Of a stretch of 52,988 nt of DNA, positions 23,634-28,921 are shown piece after piece. Under the pieces are notes generated by a model. The model did not search any database. It was not told the origin of the DNA and was given only the letters and a program-made list of their open reading frames with translations. Each line of letters starts with the position of its first letter. Position 1 is the first letter of the stretch. Position numbers and translations under genes: made by a program. Origin of the DNA: Thermoanaerobaculia bacterium. Lineage in GTDB: Bacteria > Acidobacteriota > Thermoanaerobaculia > Gp7-AA8. The stretch spans positions 1 to 52,988 of the forward strand of contig DASYUK010000484.1 of NCBI GenBank assembly GCA_036001325.1, in the 5' to 3' direction.

Positions 23634-24649
23634 GCTGGCACGAGGAGCGCGAGACCCTCCTCCGTTCCCGCATCAGCGATCTCAATCTCAGGATCGAAGG
23701 AAGCGAGCTCGAGCCGCTCGTCCATCGACTCTACGAAGAGCTCGAAGGCGCCGGACTCCAATTCAAGCCACCGATTTATCTCAGCGACGAGTGGGGTTGC
23801 CCGGAGGGCGTACCGATCATCGGCGTGCCGTTCTATCTCGCGCATCCGAAGCTCGCGCGTCTGGAGCAGGAGATCGCCGAGAACCTGGAGACGGCCGAAG
23901 ACTCGATGATGTATCTGCGCCACGAAGCGGGCCACGCGTTCAACTATGCGTACGTGCTCTACGAAGACGAAGAGTGGCACCGCATCTTCGGTCCGTACTC
24001 GCGCCCGTACATGGAGAACTACAAGCCGAATCCATTCTCACGCGAGTTCGTGCGCCACATCGCCGGATGGTATGCGCAGAAGCATCCCGATGAAGATTTC
24101 GCGGAGACGTTCGCGGTGTGGCTCGACCCGAGCTCGAATTGGCGACAGGAGTACGCTGGCAGCCCGGCGCTGACGAAGCTCGAATATGTCGATCGGCTGG
24201 CACGCAGCATCGGCAAGCAGCCACCGAAAGTGCCACCGCGCGAGCGCGACGCGCCGGTCGAGGAGCTGCGCTACACACTCAGCGATTACTACGCGCATCG
24301 CGATGATGCGACACGGCTGCAGATTCCGCGCTGGTTCGATGGCGATCTGAAGCAGCTCTTCGAGACAGAGAAGGGTGACGGTCGCTCGCCGGCGGAGCCG
24401 CTGCTGCGGGAGAAGCGGCTCGACTTCATCGGTGAGGTCACGTACTGGACCGGCGTGCCCATGCGTGTCGTGCGCTCGCTCGTCGATCACCTGCTCGAGC
24501 GCATCGCCGCGCTGGAGTTGCAGGTGATCGAAAAGGAGCGCGACCGATACGTCATCTCATTCAGCGCGATGGTGACGACGCTGGCGACGAACTATCTGCG
24601 CCACGAGCAGTTCGTTCCGGAGAGTCGCGTTCGCAGAGAAGATCGGTGA
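23630..24649 (+). CDS. Putative zinc-binding metallopeptidase (Peptidase_Mx-like)
   Basis: HExxH in YLRHEAGHAFNY, plus SDEWGCP, PFYLAHP and AQKHPDEDFAETFAVW. The start is uncertain: ATA at 23630, or ATG at 23492 deep inside the upstream gene. Confidence 0.85.
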   Translation: MSWHEERETLLRSRISDLNLRIEGSELEPLVHRLYEELEGAGLQFKPPIYLSDEWGCPEGVPIIGVPFYLAHPKLARLEQEIAENLETAEDSMMYLRHEAGHAFNYAYVLYEDEEWHRIFGPYSRPYMENYKPNPFSREFVRHIAGWYAQKHPDEDFAETFAVWLDPSSNWRQEYAGSPALTKLEYVDRLARSIGKQPPKVPPRERDAPVEELRYTLSDYYAHRDDATRLQIPRWFDGDLKQLFETEKGDGRSPAEPLLREKRLDFIGEVTYWTGVPMRVVRSLVDHLLERIAALELQVIEKERDRYVISFSAMVTTLATNYLRHEQFVPESRVRREDR

Positions 24650-25292
24650 AGACGAAGCCGTCGCGTTCGACGGTTTCTCCGGTGCAGATGCTGATCGGTC
24701 GCTCGAACATCGGGCCGGCATGCGCGAATGTGTGAAACTCGCCGCGCTCGCCGCACGGGTCGACGGTCGCGGGAAGCTCGTCGAGCAGCGCATGATCAAA
24801 CTCGCGACCGGCAAAGCGCGGCGGAAGCACACGCGGGTCGATACAACTGATTCGCGCGCGCAATCCTCCGTCGATCATCTCCCGGGCCAGCGCATCGGTC
24901 GGCCGCTCCCACAGCGGGAAAACCGGCTCGATTCCCGAGCCGGCCAGCCGTTGCTCGCGATATTCGCGAATGTCGCGCAGAAAGAGATCACCGAATGCGA
25001 TGCACTCGATGTTCTCGGCGACCGCTCGTTGCACAGCAGCGAGCATCCGCGCGTCATAGTCGACGTTCGAGCACGGCGATGGGATCTCGATCTTCCATAG
25101 CGGCAATCCGGCGGCAGCGGCTTGCATCTCGAGCAACTCGCGCCGGACGCCGTGCATCGATACGCGGTCGAACTGTCGCGTGACCGTCGTCAGCAGCGCA
25201 ACGACTTCAAAGCGCGGATCGGAGCGAAGCAGGTGCAGTGACCACGCGGAATCCTTGCCGCTGCTCCACGAGAGAATCGTCCGTCGTTTCAT
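24561..25292 (-). CDS. PP-loop ATPase, diphthamide synthase (Dph6/MJ0570)-like
   Basis: LSWSSGKDS, SMHGVR, AFGDLFL, FPLW and DPCGERGEFHTF motifs. Start ATG 25292. Confidence 0.88.
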   Translation of the reverse strand: MKRRTILSWSSGKDSAWSLHLLRSDPRFEVVALLTTVTRQFDRVSMHGVRRELLEMQAAAAGLPLWKIEIPSPCSNVDYDARMLAAVQRAVAENIECIAFGDLFLRDIREYREQRLAGSGIEPVFPLWERPTDALAREMIDGGLRARISCIDPRVLPPRFAGREFDHALLDELPATVDPCGERGEFHTFAHAGPMFERPISICTGETVERDGFVFTDLLCERDSPERTARGADSSSPASSPSR

Positions 25293-26151
25293 CAAGAATC
25301 TCCGCAAGGATCTCCAGGCTCTCGACGATTCGAGGACCGGGCCGGTTGAAATATTGATTGCCGTCAGCAACAAACACATTGCCCATTCGAACGGCCCGAA
25401 GCTCGTGCCACGCCGCTTGCGAAGTGAGCAGCGGCATATCGGCGAGCGTGCGATCGATCGAGAATCCGCACGGGAACACGACGATCACATCAGGATCCGC
25501 GCGGATGAACGTCTCCAGATCGATCCACGGTGAGTGTTCTCCGGCTCGGCCGAAGAGATTCTCGCCACCGGCCATTTCGATCAGCTCCGGGATCCAGTTG
25601 CCGGCAGCCATCAGCGGCGAGAGCCACTCGATCGTCGCCACGCGAGGCCGCGGGCCGGCTCGGTGAGGGCGCACAGTGATCGCCTCCATGCGGCTGCGCA
25701 TCGACGATACGACCTCGCACGGATCGCGGCCGATCGCGTGTGCCACCGACGCAACATCGTCGAGGATGCCGTCGATCGTGCCCGGATTCAGGGCCACGAT
25801 GCGTGGACGGCCCTCGACGCCCATCCAACTGGCGATGCTCGCCTCGACGTCACGCAGGCTCACCGCGCAGACATCGCACTGCACCTGCGTCACGATGACG
25901 TCGGGCCGCAGCTCACGAAGCAGCTCCGAATGAACGCGGTAAACGCTGATGTCGTTGCGGAGAATCTCCGTGACGCTCGCGTGAATCTCGTTCGAATCGC
26001 CGTCGACGCGTACCTTCGGCTCGGTGCACGCCGGAAGGCTCGCCACCGACGCCGGAAAATCGCACTCGTGCGAGCGGCCAACCAGATCACCGGCTGCTCC
26101 GAGCGCGCAGACGATCTCCGTCGCGCTCGGCAGCAGGGAGACGATCCTCAT
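25207..26151 (-). CDS. BtuF-like (Peripla_BP_2) cobalamin-binding protein, no signal peptide
   Basis: MRIVSLLPSATEIVCALG, VGRSHECDFP, LRPDVIVTQ, WIPELIEMAGG and FNRPGPRIVESLE motifs; ATG overlaps the upstream TGA (ATGA at 26148-26151). Confidence 0.85.
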   Translation of the reverse strand: MRIVSLLPSATEIVCALGAAGDLVGRSHECDFPASVASLPACTEPKVRVDGDSNEIHASVTEILRNDISVYRVHSELLRELRPDVIVTQVQCDVCAVSLRDVEASIASWMGVEGRPRIVALNPGTIDGILDDVASVAHAIGRDPCEVVSSMRSRMEAITVRPHRAGPRPRVATIEWLSPLMAAGNWIPELIEMAGGENLFGRAGEHSPWIDLETFIRADPDVIVVFPCGFSIDRTLADMPLLTSQAAWHELRAVRMGNVFVADGNQYFNRPGPRIVESLEILAEILDETTDDSLVEQRQGFRVVTAPASLRSAL

Positions 26152-26678
26152 CGGGAGCTCGCCGCGAAGATCGGCACTCGGCGCTCGGCCCAGACGAACG
26201 CTCCGAAGAGCAGCGCCGAATACAGAAGGTCGCCGATCAGCATCGTGCCGTAGAACGGAATCGCCGCCACGTAACATGCGATCAGGCCGGCGAGAGTCTT
26301 CGGATACAACGTGCTGATCGTCCACATCGCAAAGTTCGTGACGATGTAGAAGATCGTTGCCGACGCCACTGCGCCGCCGGCCACATAACCCGGCGATCGC
26401 CGCCGCTCGCGCAACAGCATTCCGAGAACGACGATCAGCGCGAAGGTCGCGTAGATCACGGGCATCAGCGAGTGATAGCCGATCACACTGTCGCTGATGA
26501 ACATCGCCGTCAGTGGAACGATGAAGGCCCAACGCCTCCGATCGAAGCAGGCGCCGGAGAAGAGCGACACCGCTCCGACCGGTGTGAGATTCCATGGATG
26601 CGGCAACTGGCGCATCACCGTGCAGAAGACCACGAGAGCGATTCCGAGGATGAGGCGTGCGTTTGTGCGTTGATTCAT
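26148..26678 (-). CDS. DUF6580-like integral membrane protein (putative transporter)
   Basis: About six TM segments; PHPWNLTPVGAVSLFSGA, ISDSVIG and IFYIVTNFAMW...YP...GLIACYVAAIPF motifs; RBS AGGAG before ATG 26678. Confidence 0.78.
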   Translation of the reverse strand: MNQRTNARLILGIALVVFCTVMRQLPHPWNLTPVGAVSLFSGACFDRRRWAFIVPLTAMFISDSVIGYHSLMPVIYATFALIVVLGMLLRERRRSPGYVAGGAVASATIFYIVTNFAMWTISTLYPKTLAGLIACYVAAIPFYGTMLIGDLLYSALLFGAFVWAERRVPIFAASSR

Positions 26679-26688
26679 GGCTGTGCTC

Positions 26689-28518
26689 CTAACGCAATGA
26701 ATACCGAATGCCGGCAATGAGGCGCCTCGTCGCCGACGGATATCCGAAGACCTCGTCGTAACGCCGATTCGTGGCGTTCTCCACTTTCACGAAGGGCGTG
26801 AACGCGCCGGCGTTGTAGCGGAGCGTCACGTCCGCGGTCGTATACGCAGCGTTGATCACCGCGCCGAACGGCGCCAGATCGGTAACGTCAGGACGCTCGC
26901 CGGAGTGAATGACGACAAGTTCCGCCGACACCGGATTGAAGTCATAGCCCAGAGACAATGAGCCTGAATTTTTCGGCCTTCGCGCGAGCTGCTTTTCCGT
27001 GTCGGCATCGATCGCTTTCAACCACGTGTAGCTGACCGCGCCCGAGAAATTGCCGAGCCGCCGCGATGCTGATCCCTCGACACCATGTGCACGAGCCCGG
27101 GCGATGTTGCCGAAGCGATTCGCCGCAACGTCGTAAACGATCAGATCGTCGTATTCGCTTCGAAATGCGGTGAGCGAGATCGTCGCTTGCCGGATGTAGC
27201 GATCGAATCCGATCTCAACGTTTCGCGAGCGCTCGGCATCGAGTTGTGGATTGCCGAAGAAAGGCGCGTACAGCTCCCCGATCGCCGGAGCACGGAAACC
27301 CGCGCCGTATGCCGCTCGCCATTTCGAATTGCCTGCGATCCACGCAATCGCGACTCGAGGCGAGACCTGACTGCCGAACGTATCGAAACGATCGTACCGG
27401 GCACCCACCGCCAATTCGAGCGCACCGCTGTTGAGCTGTTTCGAGAAACGGTCTTCTGCGAAGAACGAACGGCTGTCGCGCGACCGATGACGAACGTCCA
27501 GTCCGAACGAGTCGGTGTGATCAACGCTGGCGCGCTCCACTTCGACGCCGATCGTGATCACGCCCGCGACGCTGCGCCGCGACTGTGCCGTCAGACGTGC
27601 CGTGCGGCTCGACGCATCGGTATTGCCGAACTCCGCCCCGAAGGGAGCGTCCGGATCGCCGAACTTCTCGCTCCGCTCGCTGTCGGATAAGCGCAGGTCG
27701 TACTGAATGTCCGCCGCTCTGAAGCGAATCGGCAGAGCGATCTGTGATTCGGAACCTTTCTCGCGCCGATGCAGCGTCGGCACGAATGCGGTGAACGTGC
27801 GGTTCACGTTGCGCGGGATGCCGAGGTCATAGCGGTTGTTTCGGGCGACGAGAGCGAGAGACAGATTTGGTTGCGGCGTTGCCTGCACTCCGGCCACGAC
27901 CGTGTCGGCAGTGAAATCATCATTCGGCGCAAAACCGTCATCATCGCGATGCTCGATGGCGCCGTGCATCGTCCAGATGCCTTTCACCAGCGCACCCGAC
28001 ACGAGACCGTTTCTCAAGCCATTTCCGCCGCCGGCCACATCGACGCGCAATTCGCTCTGCGTCGGGGTCGTCAGGACGTTCACCACACCGCTGACCGCTT
28101 CTGAACCATAGAGTGCCGAGTAAGGTCCGCGAATGATCTCGATCTTCTCGACGCCGGCGGTCGAAAGCTGGCCGAAGTTGTAGCCGGAGAGATAGGGATT
28201 GTTCATCTGCACGCCGTTCCATAGAACGAGCGCCTGCTTGGAGCTGCCGCCGCGGATGAAGAGACTGGTGAACTTCCCCGGCGATCCGGTGCGCGCGATG
28301 GCGAGGCCCGGCACTTCGCGAAGAACGTCGGCGACGTCGCGCGCCTGCTGCTTGTCGATGTCTTCGCGGGTGATCACGCTGACCGCCGCCGGCGTCGATT
28401 CGAGGCTCTCCGGAATCGATGACGCGGTGACGACGATCCGCTCGCCGACGCTCGGCGTCTGTGCGGCGAGCGAAACACTGGTGATGAAGATGAGAACGGC
28501 GACGAGAAACGGCTTCAT
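26689..28518 (-). CDS. btuB: TonB-dependent cobalamin receptor
   Basis: Signal peptide, plug motifs (IVVTAS, DVLREVPG, IEIIRGPYSALYGSEAVSGVVN) and a beta-barrel C-terminus; lies directly downstream of a cobalamin riboswitch. Confidence 0.88.
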   Translation of the reverse strand: MKPFLVAVLIFITSVSLAAQTPSVGERIVVTASSIPESLESTPAAVSVITREDIDKQQARDVADVLREVPGLAIARTGSPGKFTSLFIRGGSSKQALVLWNGVQMNNPYLSGYNFGQLSTAGVEKIEIIRGPYSALYGSEAVSGVVNVLTTPTQSELRVDVAGGGNGLRNGLVSGALVKGIWTMHGAIEHRDDDGFAPNDDFTADTVVAGVQATPQPNLSLALVARNNRYDLGIPRNVNRTFTAFVPTLHRREKGSESQIALPIRFRAADIQYDLRLSDSERSEKFGDPDAPFGAEFGNTDASSRTARLTAQSRRSVAGVITIGVEVERASVDHTDSFGLDVRHRSRDSRSFFAEDRFSKQLNSGALELAVGARYDRFDTFGSQVSPRVAIAWIAGNSKWRAAYGAGFRAPAIGELYAPFFGNPQLDAERSRNVEIGFDRYIRQATISLTAFRSEYDDLIVYDVAANRFGNIARARAHGVEGSASRRLGNFSGAVSYTWLKAIDADTEKQLARRPKNSGSLSLGYDFNPVSAELVVIHSGERPDVTDLAPFGAVINAAYTTADVTLRYNAGAFTPFVKVENATNRRYDEVFGYPSATRRLIAGIRYSLR

Positions 28519-28559
28519 GGCAACTCCTTCCCTCCGAAGAGGCCAGATTGAGGTGAAGC

Positions 28560-28745
28560 GTCTGAAGCAGCCGGTCTCCTGGCTTCCGGGTCATCCTCAC
28601 CACGCTCCCTTCCCGCTTTCGCAGTGGGGGTCGATCGCGACCGTGCGTGGATCGTCTCCGGTTACAGTGGCGGGGGCCGCGCCGGCATCACACCGGCTTC
28701 CCTCGAGCGAACGCACCCGCGTCCGCTCATGCCGCATCAGAACTC
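28560..28745 (-). promoter_or_regulatory. Cobalamin (AdoCbl-class) riboswitch
   Basis: Minus strand reads GGGAAGCCGGTGTGATGCCGGCGCGGCCCCCGCCACTGTAA ... CCCACTGCGAAAGCGGGAAGG ... AAGCCAGGAGACCGGC. A CCTC-TTCG-GAGG hairpin sits next to the btuB RBS. Confidence 0.95.
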
Positions 28746-28767
28746 AGTTGTGAAAGAACGAGCATGG

Positions 28768-28776
28768 ATCATAACA
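28768..28776 (-). promoter_or_regulatory. Candidate extended -10 promoter of the B12 operon
   Basis: TG-T-TATGAT on the minus strand, about 20 nt upstream of the riboswitch. Confidence 0.5.
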
Positions 28777-28864
28777 GGTCGTGGGTCGTGGGTCGTCGGT
28801 ACCGGGGGCCTCGTCGCCTGAGGCGCTGCAGCCCCCGGTACCTACGACCTACGACCCACGACCC
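28772..28864. repeat. Palindromic intergenic repeat with tandem heptamer arms (family A)
   Basis: GGTCGTG repeats on the left and ACCTACG/ACCCACG repeats on the right; inner perfect inverted repeat GGTACCGGGGGC/GCCCCCGGTACC. Confidence 0.88.
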
Positions 28865-28921
28865 ATCACTGTTTGACACTGTCGGACCTCGTCGCTACTC
28901 TCGTTTTGCGGCGGCAACACG

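What the first reader, a model, noticed from the sequence alone, without database searches (positions are those of the whole stretch)
24561..28745. Cobalamin-riboswitch operon without BtuCD but with a DUF6580-like membrane protein and a diphthamide-synthase-like amidase/ligase
Seen: riboswitch - btuB - DUF6580-like - BtuF-like - PP-loop ATPase, tightly linked, with no ABC permease or ATPase. Established: Dph6-type enzymes amidate a carboxylate using ATP and ammonia, and bacteria lack diphthamide; corrinoid side chains are amidated carboxylates. Inference: an alternative B12 uptake route (solitary S-component-like inner-membrane carrier) plus a salvage enzyme that repairs or amidates incomplete corrinoids.
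Basis: partly seen in the sequence, partly recalled or inferred. Interest (0 to 1): 0.62.

Follow-up and report, generated by a model that had tools for sequence, protein, structure and literature searches.

The report
B12 uptake operon without BtuCD
A vitamin-B12-sensing RNA switch controls four genes that let a B12-dependent soil bacterium lacking the classical BtuCD pump take up the vitamin, most likely through DUF6580, a small unstudied membrane protein that is physically tied to an ATP-using enzyme already predicted in 2012 to act on B12.

Summary
On the minus strand lie a cobalamin riboswitch (Rfam, 90.9 bits), a BtuB-like receptor, a DUF6580 membrane protein, a BtuF-fold protein with no signal peptide, and a DUF71-B12 PP-loop ATPase.

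The 97.6%-complete genome has MetH, a B12-binding mutase subunit and two PduO adenosyltransferases. It has no FecCD/BtuC permease, no ECF-T, no CobS and no CbiB, and this is its only B12 riboswitch. It can therefore use only complete cobamides and needs a non-BtuCD inner-membrane route.

- **Fold:** DUF6580 models confidently as a six-helix protein. Its only real fold matches are ECF S-components.
- **Phyletic pattern:** in 301 Acidobacteriota genomes DUF6580 complements FecCD. 20 of the 26 genomes without FecCD carry it (odds ratio 40).
- **Fusions:** DUF71 is fused to DUF6580, in both orders, and to BtuF-like proteins in several protein clusters.

Two points limit novelty. The DUF71-B12 link was published as a prediction in 2012, and the CbiZ-like role proposed there does not fit a genome without CobS and CbiB. 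I found no paper on DUF6580. The carrier role is well supported but only computationally. Side-chain re-amidation by DUF71 is plausible and untested.

The parts
28552..28751 (-). Cobalamin riboswitch aptamer. It is the only one in the genome.
   Evidence: RF00174, 90.9 bits, E 2.8e-21, model positions 1-189. It is the single match in the whole genome.
28519..28551 (-). Short expression platform with a purine-rich ribosome-binding site (GGAGGGAAGGAG) just before the btuB ATG. Control is probably at the level of translation.
   Evidence: Read from the sequence. Pairing of the aptamer's 3' tail (CUUCACCUC) with the ribosome-binding site is my inference. No terminator-like site lies here.
26689..28518 (-). 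BtuB-like TonB-dependent outer-membrane receptor, 609 aa, with a signal peptide.
   Evidence: Plug 102.9 bits and barrel 158 bits. Best NCBIfam match is TIGR01779 TonB-B12 at 282.8 bits, below the cut-off.
26148..26678 (-). DUF6580 six-helix membrane protein, 176 aa: the proposed solitary S-component-like inner-membrane corrinoid carrier. His27 (PHPxN motif) and Cys135 are invariant.
   Evidence: PF20221, 185 bits. AF2 model pLDDT 92.2. The Foldseek matches with TM 0.46-0.58 are all ECF S-components. H27 and C135 are invariant in 80/80 sequences. It complements FecCD across genomes.
25207..26151 (-). Leaderless (cytoplasmic) BtuF/ShuT-fold binding protein, 314 aa, with invariant HECD, CxxC and PCG motifs. 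It is the proposed cytoplasmic acceptor of the corrinoid.
   Evidence: PF01497, 48.8 bits. All 23 aligned homologues start at M-x-RIVSLLPSATE without a signal peptide, and H28, C30, C92, C95 and C228 are invariant. AF2 pLDDT 89.5. Top Foldseek match is V. cholerae BtuF 5ysc, E 3.5e-15; E. coli BtuF 1n4a gives a target TM of 0.82.
24561..25292 (-). DUF71-B12 subgroup PP-loop ATP pyrophosphatase (Dph6-like), 243 aa.
   Evidence: PF01902, 89.4 bits. Matches PDB 3rjz/3rk1 (P. furiosus PF0828) at E 1.4e-11. PP-loop SSGKDS and signature ERGEFH at residue 182, which fits the ENGEF/YH signature of the DUF71-B12 subgroup.

Best explanation
This is a B12-repressed operon for acquiring complete cobamides, in an acidobacterium that needs B12 and cannot make or rebuild it.

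**Proposed mechanism**
1. When cellular B12 is low, the riboswitch allows expression.
2. The BtuB-like receptor brings the corrinoid across the outer membrane.
3. DUF6580 carries it across the inner membrane. DUF6580 is a six-helix protein with the fold of an ECF S-component, and it works without an ECF module or a BtuCD pump. Invariant His27 and/or Cys135 are the likely cobalt or corrin contacts.
4. On the cytoplasmic face the cargo passes to a leaderless, cysteine-rich BtuF-fold protein.
5. The DUF71-B12 PP-loop ATPase acts on it there, and probably docks on both partners.
6. The enzyme most likely adenylates a corrin side-chain carboxylate and re-amidates it, repairing deamidated cobamides. 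This ATP-consuming step, together with the internal binding protein, would make uptake one-directional (metabolic trapping).

**Status of each step**
- Shown by computation: the parts and their order, riboswitch control, the absence of FecCD, ECF-T, CobS and CbiB, the folds, the phyletic complementarity, and the fusions.
- Inferred: the substrate, the direction of transport, the hand-over, and the chemistry of DUF71.

My confidence is about 0.75 for the carrier role of DUF6580 and about 0.3 for re-amidation as the DUF71 reaction.
For: **1. The organism needs B12 and cannot make or rebuild it.**
- It has MetH (1118+ aa, contig C396) and a B12-binding mutase subunit (C18), plus two PduO-type adenosyltransferases.
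- It has no CobS and no CbiB.
- MetE gives only a 24-bit partial match.

**2. It has no known ABC route for B12.**
- No FecCD permease and no ECF-T in a genome that is 97.6% complete.
- The only B12 riboswitch in the genome is the one on this operon.

**3. DUF6580 has the fold of an S-component.**
- The model has pLDDT 92.2.
- The only Foldseek PDB matches with TM of at least 0.46 are S-components: ThiT 3rlb (probability 0.97), 5edl, PanT, FolT (TM 0.55/0.58) and RibU.

**4. DUF6580 complements FecCD across 301 Acidobacteriota genomes.**
- DUF6580 is in 41 genomes; 26 genomes have no FecCD.
- 20 of those 26 carry DUF6580: odds ratio 40, Fisher p = 5e-15.
- Three of the six exceptions have CobS, so they are probably producers.
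- In family f38, all 18 CobS-negative genomes have DUF6580 and no real FecCD, against 2 of 7 CobS-positive genomes.
- A relative in the same order, with no FecCD and no DUF71, has only riboswitch-BtuB-DUF6580.

**5. DUF6580 belongs to the B12 regulon across phyla.**
- Rfam finds a cobalamin riboswitch upstream on the same strand in 12 of 18 loci tested.
- An nhmmer profile finds one in 35 of 47 loci with full flanks.

**6. DUF71 is physically coupled to its neighbours.**
- DUF71::DUF6580 fusions exist in both orders, in five protein clusters only 45-51% identical to each other: P0121-P0125; Pfam confirms both domains in the four I scanned, P0121-P0123 and P0125.
- DUF71::BtuF-like fusions: P0139 and P0192.
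- DUF71 is directly adjacent to DUF6580 in 28 of 47 loci.

**7. The DUF71 here is the B12 subgroup and keeps its ATP site.**
- 42 of 43 copies next to DUF6580 carry E[NR]GEFH, and 40 of 43 carry S[GS]GKDS (signature).

**8. The BtuF-like protein is leaderless in all 23 homologues aligned and has the fold of tetrapyrrole-binding proteins.**
Against: - There is no experimental evidence for any step.
- The Foldseek E-values for DUF6580 are weak (0.2-3) and TM is only about 0.5. BtuM itself was not among the top 50 matches.
- DUF6580 co-occurs with a complete BtuFCD in the same locus in 24 of 47 loci, and 15 of 41 DUF6580-positive Acidobacteriota have FecCD. It is therefore not simply a replacement.
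- The complementarity is phylogenetically clustered: 16 of the 20 genomes belong to one family, with five families in all.
- About half of the DUF6580 genomes lack DUF71 (20 of 41), and most DUF71 genomes lack DUF6580 (56 of 77). The pair is facultative.
- A complete cobamide has no free carboxylate. The re-amidation substrate assumes that damaged cobamides are available in the environment.
- I could not test whether the genome encodes BtuM or a BacA/Rv1819c-type B12 transporter.
Confidence: 0.6

Rival explanations
1. DUF71-B12 is a functional analogue of bacterial CbiZ, as proposed by de Crecy-Lagard et al. in 2012. It would cleave pseudo-B12 or other cobamides to cobyric acid, so that the cell can rebuild them with its preferred lower ligand. 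The operon would then be a remodelling locus.
For: The published analysis found anti-correlation with CbiZ, and clustering with cbiB and B12 transporters in 2012-era genomes. A DUF71::CobT fusion exists (P0151). In one relative (G067) DUF71 lies near BtuC and CobS.
Against: This genome has no CbiB and no CobS, so cobyric acid would be a dead end. In the Acidobacteriota sample, 71 of 77 DUF71-positive genomes lack CobS. The intact PP-loop points to ATP-dependent carboxyl activation rather than hydrolysis.
Confidence: 0.07
2. DUF6580 is not the transporter. It is a membrane anchor or accessory partner for DUF71 or for the BtuF-like protein, and B12 crosses the inner membrane through an unidentified system.
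For: DUF6580 is fused to DUF71. It coexists with a full BtuFCD in 24 of 47 loci. The fold match is weak in statistical terms.
Against: 20 of 41 DUF6580-positive genomes have no DUF71. Minimal riboswitch-BtuB-DUF6580 operons occur in genomes without FecCD. DUF6580 complements FecCD strongly. Its fold is that of substrate-binding S-components.
Confidence: 0.1
3. DUF6580 imports a different B12-related solute: cobalt, dimethylbenzimidazole, alpha-ribazole or cobinamide.
For: A weak sub-threshold Pfam match to the HupE/UreJ Ni/Co transporters (E 0.0021, 18 bits against a cut-off of 23). From my own knowledge, S-component-like CblT proteins carry alpha-ribazole.
Against: Without CobS and CbiB none of these solutes can be turned into a cofactor in this genome. 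Only 2 of 41 DUF6580-positive Acidobacteriota have CobS. The gene sits between a BtuB-like receptor and a BtuF-fold protein.
Confidence: 0.04
4. DUF71 makes no lasting chemical change to the corrinoid. It acts as the energy-coupling or release factor of the carrier, using ATP hydrolysis to AMP and PPi to reset DUF6580 or unload its cargo, in the way the ECF ATPases do for ordinary S-components.
For: Fusions to the carrier in both orders. There is no ECF module. The ATP site is intact.
Against: From my own knowledge, PP-loop enzymes are known as substrate-adenylating enzymes and not as motors. Half of the DUF6580 genomes lack DUF71. DUF71 also occurs with BtuFCD and without DUF6580.
Confidence: 0.12

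Closest known systems
BtuM of Thiobacillus denitrificans (PDB 6FFV; Rempel et al. 2018, PMC6072759)
   Same: Both are small six-helix inner-membrane proteins with an S-component-like fold, found in Gram-negative bacteria that have BtuB but no ECF module. Both sit next to btuB. Both have an invariant cysteine. Both sit next to a cytoplasmic B12-processing enzyme that could trap the cargo: btuR for BtuM, DUF71 here.
   Different: No sequence relationship is detectable. Neither phmmer nor a family profile finds any PDB chain at E up to 10. The invariant Cys135 lies in the last helix, not in loop L3, and there is an additional invariant His27 in a PHPxN motif. The partners differ (DUF71 and a leaderless BtuF-like protein). 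The family is far larger and spans many more phyla: 6259 clusters at 50% identity, against the 131 homologues reported for BtuM.
DUF71-B12 subgroup of DUF71/COG2102 (de Crecy-Lagard et al. 2012, PMC3541065)
   Same: The Pfam family is the same. The PP-loop is conserved. The signature has His in place of the Dph6 catalytic Glu (ERGEFH here, ENGEF/YH in the paper). The gene clusters with B12 transport genes.
   Different: The paper's proposed role (a CbiZ-like route feeding CbiB) cannot work in this genome, which lacks CbiB and CobS. In the passages I read, the paper does not describe the DUF6580 partner, the leaderless BtuF-like partner or the fusions.
BtuCD-BtuF ABC importer of E. coli
   Same: Both follow a TonB-dependent BtuB step and use a class III binding protein with the BtuF fold.
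   Different: There is no permease or ATPase anywhere in the genome. The binding protein has no signal peptide, so it should sit on the cytoplasmic side. It also carries four invariant cysteines.
ECF-CbrT cobalamin transporter and other ECF S-components (ThiT, FolT, PanT, RibU)
   Same: These are the best structural matches of the DUF6580 model.
   Different: There is no EcfT in the genome and no sequence similarity.
Dph6 diphthine-ammonia ligase (archaea and eukaryotes)
   Same: Same fold and same ATP-binding PP-loop. The closest solved structure is P. furiosus PF0828.
   Different: The catalytic Glu of the EGGE/DxE motif is replaced by His. The protein scores 66 bits against the 197.3 cut-off of TIGR03679. 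Bacteria have no diphthamide.

Membership tests
Cobalamin riboswitch (RF00174) | Covariance-model score above the Rfam gathering threshold over the full aptamer | tested here: met
   90.9 bits against 31.5, model positions 1-189
BtuB (TonB-dependent B12 receptor) | Plug domain plus 22-strand barrel domain | tested here: met
   PF07715 102.9 bits, PF00593 158 bits
BtuB (TonB-dependent B12 receptor) | Reaches the NCBIfam equivalog cut-off (TIGR01779 / NF007926) | tested here: not met
   282.8 bits against 599.7, and 240.6 against 836. It is nevertheless the best-scoring receptor family.
DUF6580 (PF20221) | Pfam score above the gathering threshold over the full profile | tested here: met
   185 bits against 27, profile positions 3-160 of 162
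BtuM family | Detectable sequence homology to BtuM_Td (the paper defined the family by jackhmmer) | tested here: not met
   No PDB chain, 6FFV included, at E up to 10 with phmmer or with a 32-sequence profile
BtuM family | Six-helix S-component-like fold in an organism without an ECF module | tested here: met
   AF2 model with pLDDT 92. The best real fold matches are S-components at TM 0.46-0.58. No EcfT in the genome. The Foldseek E-values are weak.
BtuM family | Invariant cysteine in loop L3 that ligates cobalt | tested here: inconclusive
   Cys135 is invariant (80/80), but by the model's helix boundaries it lies in the last helix. The L3-loop residue His69 is His in 65 and Tyr in 15 of 80. 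Ligation cannot be tested here.
Canonical ECF transporter S-component | Works with an EcfT/EcfA module encoded in the genome | tested here: not met
   PF02361 is absent from the genome, while the control genomes ring
DUF71-B12 subgroup | PF01902 domain with an intact PP-loop | tested here: met
   89.4 bits; SSGKDS at residues 10-15
DUF71-B12 subgroup | ENGEF/YH signature (His in place of the Dph6 Glu188) | tested here: met
   ERGEFH at residue 182. 42 of 43 copies next to DUF6580 have E[NR]GEFH (signature defined).
DUF71-B12 subgroup | Physical clustering with B12 transport genes | tested here: met
   Same riboswitch-controlled operon as the BtuB-like and BtuF-like genes
DUF71-B12 subgroup | Occurs in genomes that encode CbiB, which is the basis of the CbiZ-analogue hypothesis | tested here: not met
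   PF03186 and PF02654 are absent from the genome. 71 of 77 DUF71-positive Acidobacteriota lack CobS.
Dph6 (diphthine-ammonia ligase) | EGGE/DxE catalytic motif and the equivalog score | tested here: not met
   His replaces the final Glu. TIGR03679 scores 66 bits against 197.3.
BtuF (periplasmic B12-binding protein) | Class III (TroA-like) two-lobe fold of the tetrapyrrole-binding group | tested here: met
   Foldseek: 5ysc at E 3.5e-15, 1n4a at target TM 0.82, also ShuT and PhuT. phmmer matches 5ysc at 6.2e-9.
BtuF (periplasmic B12-binding protein) | N-terminal signal peptide and periplasmic location | tested here: not met
   The protein starts MRIVSLLPSATE. All 23 homologues are leaderless. 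The upstream in-frame sequence lies inside the DUF6580 gene and is not hydrophobic.
BtuF (periplasmic B12-binding protein) | Partner BtuC/BtuD permease and ATPase | tested here: not met
   No FecCD family member in the genome
BtuF (periplasmic B12-binding protein) | Binds cobalamin | not testable with these tools
   Needs purified protein. NCBI labels homologues 'cobalamin-binding protein', which is an annotation and not a test.

The most novel reading that the evidence does not exclude
DUF6580, DUF71-B12 and the leaderless BtuF-fold protein together form a new kind of vitamin importer. An S-component-like carrier would be driven by a PP-loop ATP pyrophosphatase docked on its cytoplasmic face, not by an ABC/ECF module. 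That enzyme would adenylate or amidate the corrinoid as it emerges, and an internal, cysteine-rich binding protein would strip it off. This would amount to group translocation of vitamin B12 and would also repair damaged cobamides. DUF6580 would then be the long-sought inner-membrane B12 route of many of the auxotrophic Gram-negative bacteria that lack BtuCD.
Probability: 0.25. Interest if true: 0.85.

Novelty: new variant of a known kind. Interest (0 to 1): 0.6.

Why it matters
According to the BtuM paper, BtuCDF is predicted in only about half of B12-auxotrophic bacteria, and which protein carries the vitamin across their inner membrane is an open question. DUF6580 is a large family: 6259 clusters at 50% identity, found in at least 592 species across many phyla, including an Akkermansia muciniphila metagenome-assembled genome (L070). 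I found no paper on it.

This genome is a clean test case. It depends on B12, it cannot make or rebuild the cofactor, it has no FecCD and no ECF module, and its only B12 riboswitch sits on this operon.

The work also gives a 14-year-old prediction about DUF71 a sharper form that can be tested. The proposed CbiZ-like role does not fit here. The fusions to the carrier and to a cytoplasmic BtuF-like protein suggest instead that the enzyme acts on incoming complete cobamides at the membrane. If confirmed, this would change how B12 uptake and cross-feeding are predicted from soil and gut genomes.

Tried and rejected
- **DUF71 as a new adenosyltransferase:** rejected. The genome already has two PduO-type enzymes.
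- **DUF6580 as a HupE/UreJ-type cobalt transporter:** rejected. The Pfam match is below threshold (18 bits against 23), and a genome without CobS and CbiB has no use for cobalt in B12 synthesis.
- **A 1032-aa open frame around DUF6580 in G004 (L084):** this looked like a fusion. It is only an arginine-rich, out-of-frame read-through of GC-rich DNA upstream of a normal DUF6580 gene.
- **Sequence search of DUF6580 against the PDB:** nothing found with the single sequence or with a profile.
- **Promoter and terminator consensus scans:** uninformative. No promoter-like site, and the two terminator-like sites are within the number expected by chance.
- **Literature searches:** DUF6580, PF20221, COG2102 with cobamide, and leaderless BtuF-like proteins returned nothing beyond the 2012 paper and papers citing it.
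- **BtuM or a BacA/Rv1819c-type transporter in this genome:** I could not test for these.


Full report
**1. What is there**

The minus strand of 24561-28751 carries a compact operon.
- The Rfam cobalamin aptamer matches at 28751-28552 over its full length (90.9 bits; gathering score 31.5).
- Thirty-three bases downstream, after a purine-rich ribosome-binding site, a 609-aa TonB-dependent receptor begins (28518-26689). It has Plug and barrel domains. Its best NCBIfam match is the B12 receptor TIGR01779, although below the equivalog cut-off (282.8 against 599.7).
- Ten bases after its stop codon comes a 176-aa DUF6580 protein (26678-26148; PF20221, 185 bits).
- The stop codon of DUF6580 overlaps, as ATGA, the start of a 314-aa Peripla_BP_2 protein (26151-25207).
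- A 243-aa PF01902 'diphthamide synthase' PP-loop protein (25292-24561) overlaps the end of that gene.

The operon is bounded by a divergent GTPase gene upstream and a convergent peptidase gene downstream. Only the right-hand edge should move, from 28745 to 28751.

**2. Genome context**

The window lies in a 4.5-Mb acidobacterial genome that is 97.6% complete (phylum).

The genome contains:
- a cobalamin-dependent methionine synthase (1118+ aa, cut by a contig end) and a B12-binding mutase subunit with the DxHxxG motif;
- two PduO-type adenosyltransferases.

The genome lacks:
- CobS and CbiB;
- a convincing MetE, which gives only a 24-bit partial match;
- any FecCD-family permease;
- any ECF T-component.

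The positive controls rang in every one of these searches. This operon's riboswitch is the only cobalamin riboswitch in the genome.

The organism therefore needs both methyl- and adenosyl-cobalamin. It cannot make or re-assemble the cofactor, so it can use only complete cobamides. It has an outer-membrane B12 receptor but neither of the ABC-type inner-membrane routes. Some other inner-membrane carrier must exist.

**3. DUF6580**
- **Size of the family.** A profile of 32 family members finds 6259 clusters at 50% identity (4403 at E up to 1e-10). Relatives occur in at least 592 species of Acidobacteriota, Verrucomicrobiota (including an Akkermansia muciniphila metagenome-assembled genome, L070), Planctomycetota, Ignavibacteriota/Bacteroidota, Alpha-, Gamma- and 'Delta'-proteobacteria, Binatia, Methylomirabilota and others.
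- **Literature and annotation.** No paper in the searchable library mentions DUF6580 or PF20221. NCBI calls it a 'putative transport protein'.
- **Structure.** It has no sequence relative in the PDB, even with a profile at E up to 10. The AlphaFold model is confident (pLDDT 92.2, pTM 0.87). It shows a helix bundle with basic cytoplasmic loops and both ends inside.
- **Fold matches.** The only Foldseek PDB matches with a meaningful TM-score are ECF S-components: ThiT 3rlb (TM 0.52, probability 0.97), 5edl, PanT, FolT (0.55/0.58) and RibU. Their E-values are weak.
- **Conserved residues.** Across 80 sequences from many phyla, His27 (PHPxN motif after helix 1), Asn30, Asp63, Tyr76, Asn115, Tyr125 and Cys135 are invariant. 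His69 in the third loop is His in 65 and Tyr in 15.

**4. Evidence that DUF6580 is the inner-membrane B12 carrier**

(a) Regulon membership.
- Rfam finds a cobalamin riboswitch upstream on the same strand in 12 of 18 loci from different phyla, and a divergent one in two more.
- An nhmmer profile built from those hits finds one upstream in 35 of 47 loci with full flanks. A TonB receptor is next to DUF6580 in 35 of the 47.

(b) Phyletic complementarity in an even sample of 301 Acidobacteriota genomes that are at least 90% complete.
- DUF6580 is present in 41. FecCD is absent from 26 and gives only spurious-looking matches in 10 more.
- 20 of the 26 genomes without FecCD carry DUF6580, against 21 of the other 275. 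The odds ratio is 40 (Fisher p = 5e-15), and 43 if the weak matches count as absent.
- Three of the six exceptions have CobS, so they are probably producers.
- In family f38, all 18 genomes without CobS have DUF6580 and no real FecCD, whereas only 2 of the 7 CobS-positive genomes have it.
- All six sampled relatives in the window's own family have FecCD and no DUF6580. This points to a recent displacement in this lineage.
- The pattern occurs in five families. Sixteen of the twenty genomes belong to one family, so the p-value overstates independence.

(c) A minimal operon. A genome of the same order, with no FecCD and no DUF71, has just riboswitch-BtuB-DUF6580.

(d) Exclusion of other substrates. 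Without CobS and CbiB, the genome cannot use cobalt, DMB, alpha-ribazole or cobinamide to make a cofactor.

**5. The enzyme**

The PP-loop protein belongs to the DUF71-B12 subgroup defined by de Crecy-Lagard et al. in 2012 (PMC3541065).
- It keeps the ATP-binding loop (SSGKDS).
- It carries ERGEFH where the subgroup signature is ENGEF/YH and true Dph6 has EGGE/DxE.
- 42 of 43 copies next to DUF6580 carry this signature.

The link of this family to B12 salvage is thus already published, as a prediction. That paper proposed a CbiZ-like amidohydrolase feeding CbiB. That role cannot hold here. The genome has neither CbiB nor CobS, and 71 of 77 DUF71-positive genomes in the sample lack CobS. The enzyme must therefore act on complete cobamides or on something else.

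From general knowledge of the family (Dph6, NAD synthetase, QueC and others), PP-loop enzymes activate a carboxyl or carbonyl group by adenylation. The most economical chemistry is ATP-dependent re-amidation of cobamides that have lost a side-chain amide. It is inference only.

**6. Physical coupling**

A search with a 685-aa open frame from a Planctomycetia genome (L013) showed that DUF6580 and DUF71 are fused in five protein clusters that are only 45-51% identical to each other.
- The order is DUF6580-DUF71 in P0121 and DUF71-DUF6580 in P0122, P0123 and P0125; the precomputed domain list shows P0124 has both domains, but I did not determine their order.
- Fusion in both orders fits a carrier whose two ends are both cytoplasmic.
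- DUF71 is also fused to BtuF-like binding-protein domains (P0139, P0192) and to CobT (P0151).
- In the loci, DUF71 is directly adjacent to DUF6580 in 28 of 47.
- In the genome sample the two co-occur more often than chance (21 of 41; odds ratio 3.8; p = 1.6e-4), but neither requires the other.

**7. The BtuF-like protein**
- All 23 aligned homologues begin M-x-RIVSLLPSATE with no signal peptide. They share invariant His28-Glu-Cys30-Asp, Cys92-x-x-Cys95 and Pro-Cys228-Gly.
- The model (pLDDT 89.5) matches V. cholerae BtuF best (E 3.5e-15). It also matches the heme-binding proteins ShuT and PhuT, and E. coli BtuF at a target TM of 0.82.
- This leaderless form appears mostly in loci without BtuCD (5 of 6).
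- In a gammaproteobacterial locus it is fused to Cys_rich_CWC and DUF5522 domains. In a Blastocatellia locus those domains form the next gene.
- A cytoplasmic tetrapyrrole-binding fold next to a carrier suggests an internal acceptor. This is inference.

**8. What does not fit neatly**

In 24 of the 47 loci, mainly Terriglobia-like Acidobacteriota and Verrucomicrobiia, the layout is riboswitch-BtuF-BtuC-BtuD followed by riboswitch-receptor-DUF71-DUF6580. There DUF6580 coexists with the classical pump. Either the two routes take different corrinoids, for example damaged ones through receptor-DUF6580-DUF71, or they are redundant. I cannot tell which. This is the main reason for keeping alive the rival reading that DUF6580 is an accessory of DUF71.

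**9. Comparison with what is known, and verdict**

The system works most like BtuM with BtuR: a solitary S-component-like B12 carrier next to a cytoplasmic enzyme that could trap the cargo. DUF6580 is not a BtuM family member by sequence, its conserved residues sit elsewhere, and its partners differ. The DUF71 half is a known prediction, now narrowed.

Earlier notes of this scan have raised the DUF6580-importer idea in many genomes. I treated them as leads only.
- the genome-wide absence of FecCD, ECF-T, CobS and CbiB;
- the quantified complementarity with FecCD;
- the recurrent fusions;
- the argument against the CbiZ-like role.

I rate it a new variant of a known kind, of real interest to B12 specialists, and entirely untested at the bench.

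Noticed in passing
L082:4340-6748 (-) and L083:4185-6560 (-): In two genomes of the same class (G264, G023), DUF6580 and the BtuB-like receptor lie in one open frame with no stop codon between them. The receptor's signal peptide sits between the two parts. Either a single polyprotein is cut by signal peptidase, or there is an unusual translational arrangement. Pfam confirms both parts in one frame.
   Followed up: partly
L017:8555-9784 and L044:9459-9881: The leaderless BtuF-like protein is fused at its C-terminus to Cys_rich_CWC and DUF5522 domains in a gammaproteobacterial genome. In a Blastocatellia genome the same two small cysteine-rich domains form a separate gene just downstream. This may be a redox or metal partner of the module.
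   Followed up: partly
L070:5593-7290 and L049:5552-7285: In loci assigned to Akkermansia muciniphila and Pedosphaera, a secreted protein of 565-577 aa with no Pfam match lies between the riboswitch and DUF71-DUF6580-BtuF-like, where other loci have the TonB receptor. It could be an unrecognised corrinoid-capture protein.
   Followed up: partly
proteins P0126-P0191: DUF71 proteins are also fused to GNAT acetyltransferase domains (dozens of clusters), CYTH, cytidine deaminase-like, AraC HTH and prepilin-type domains. The family is not monofunctional.
   Followed up: no
window 28770-28885: A long GC-rich palindromic repeat (GGGTCGT... units flanking a hairpin) fills the divergent promoter region between the riboswitch and the MglA-like GTPase gene.
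   Followed up: no
window 25207-25292 and 24561-24649: The DUF71 start lies 86 nt inside the 3' end of the BtuF-like gene. The DUF71 3' end overlaps the convergent peptidase-like ORF by 89 nt. Close relatives (L004) show the same kind of overlap.
   Followed up: partly
genome G175: One genome of the same class carries nine PF01902 (DUF71) matches, reminiscent of the five copies the 2012 paper reported in Dehalococcoides.
   Followed up: no
protein P0386: A 473-aa protein has DUF6580 at residues 1-190 and about 280 further residues of unknown nature. This is another fusion that I did not examine.
   Followed up: no
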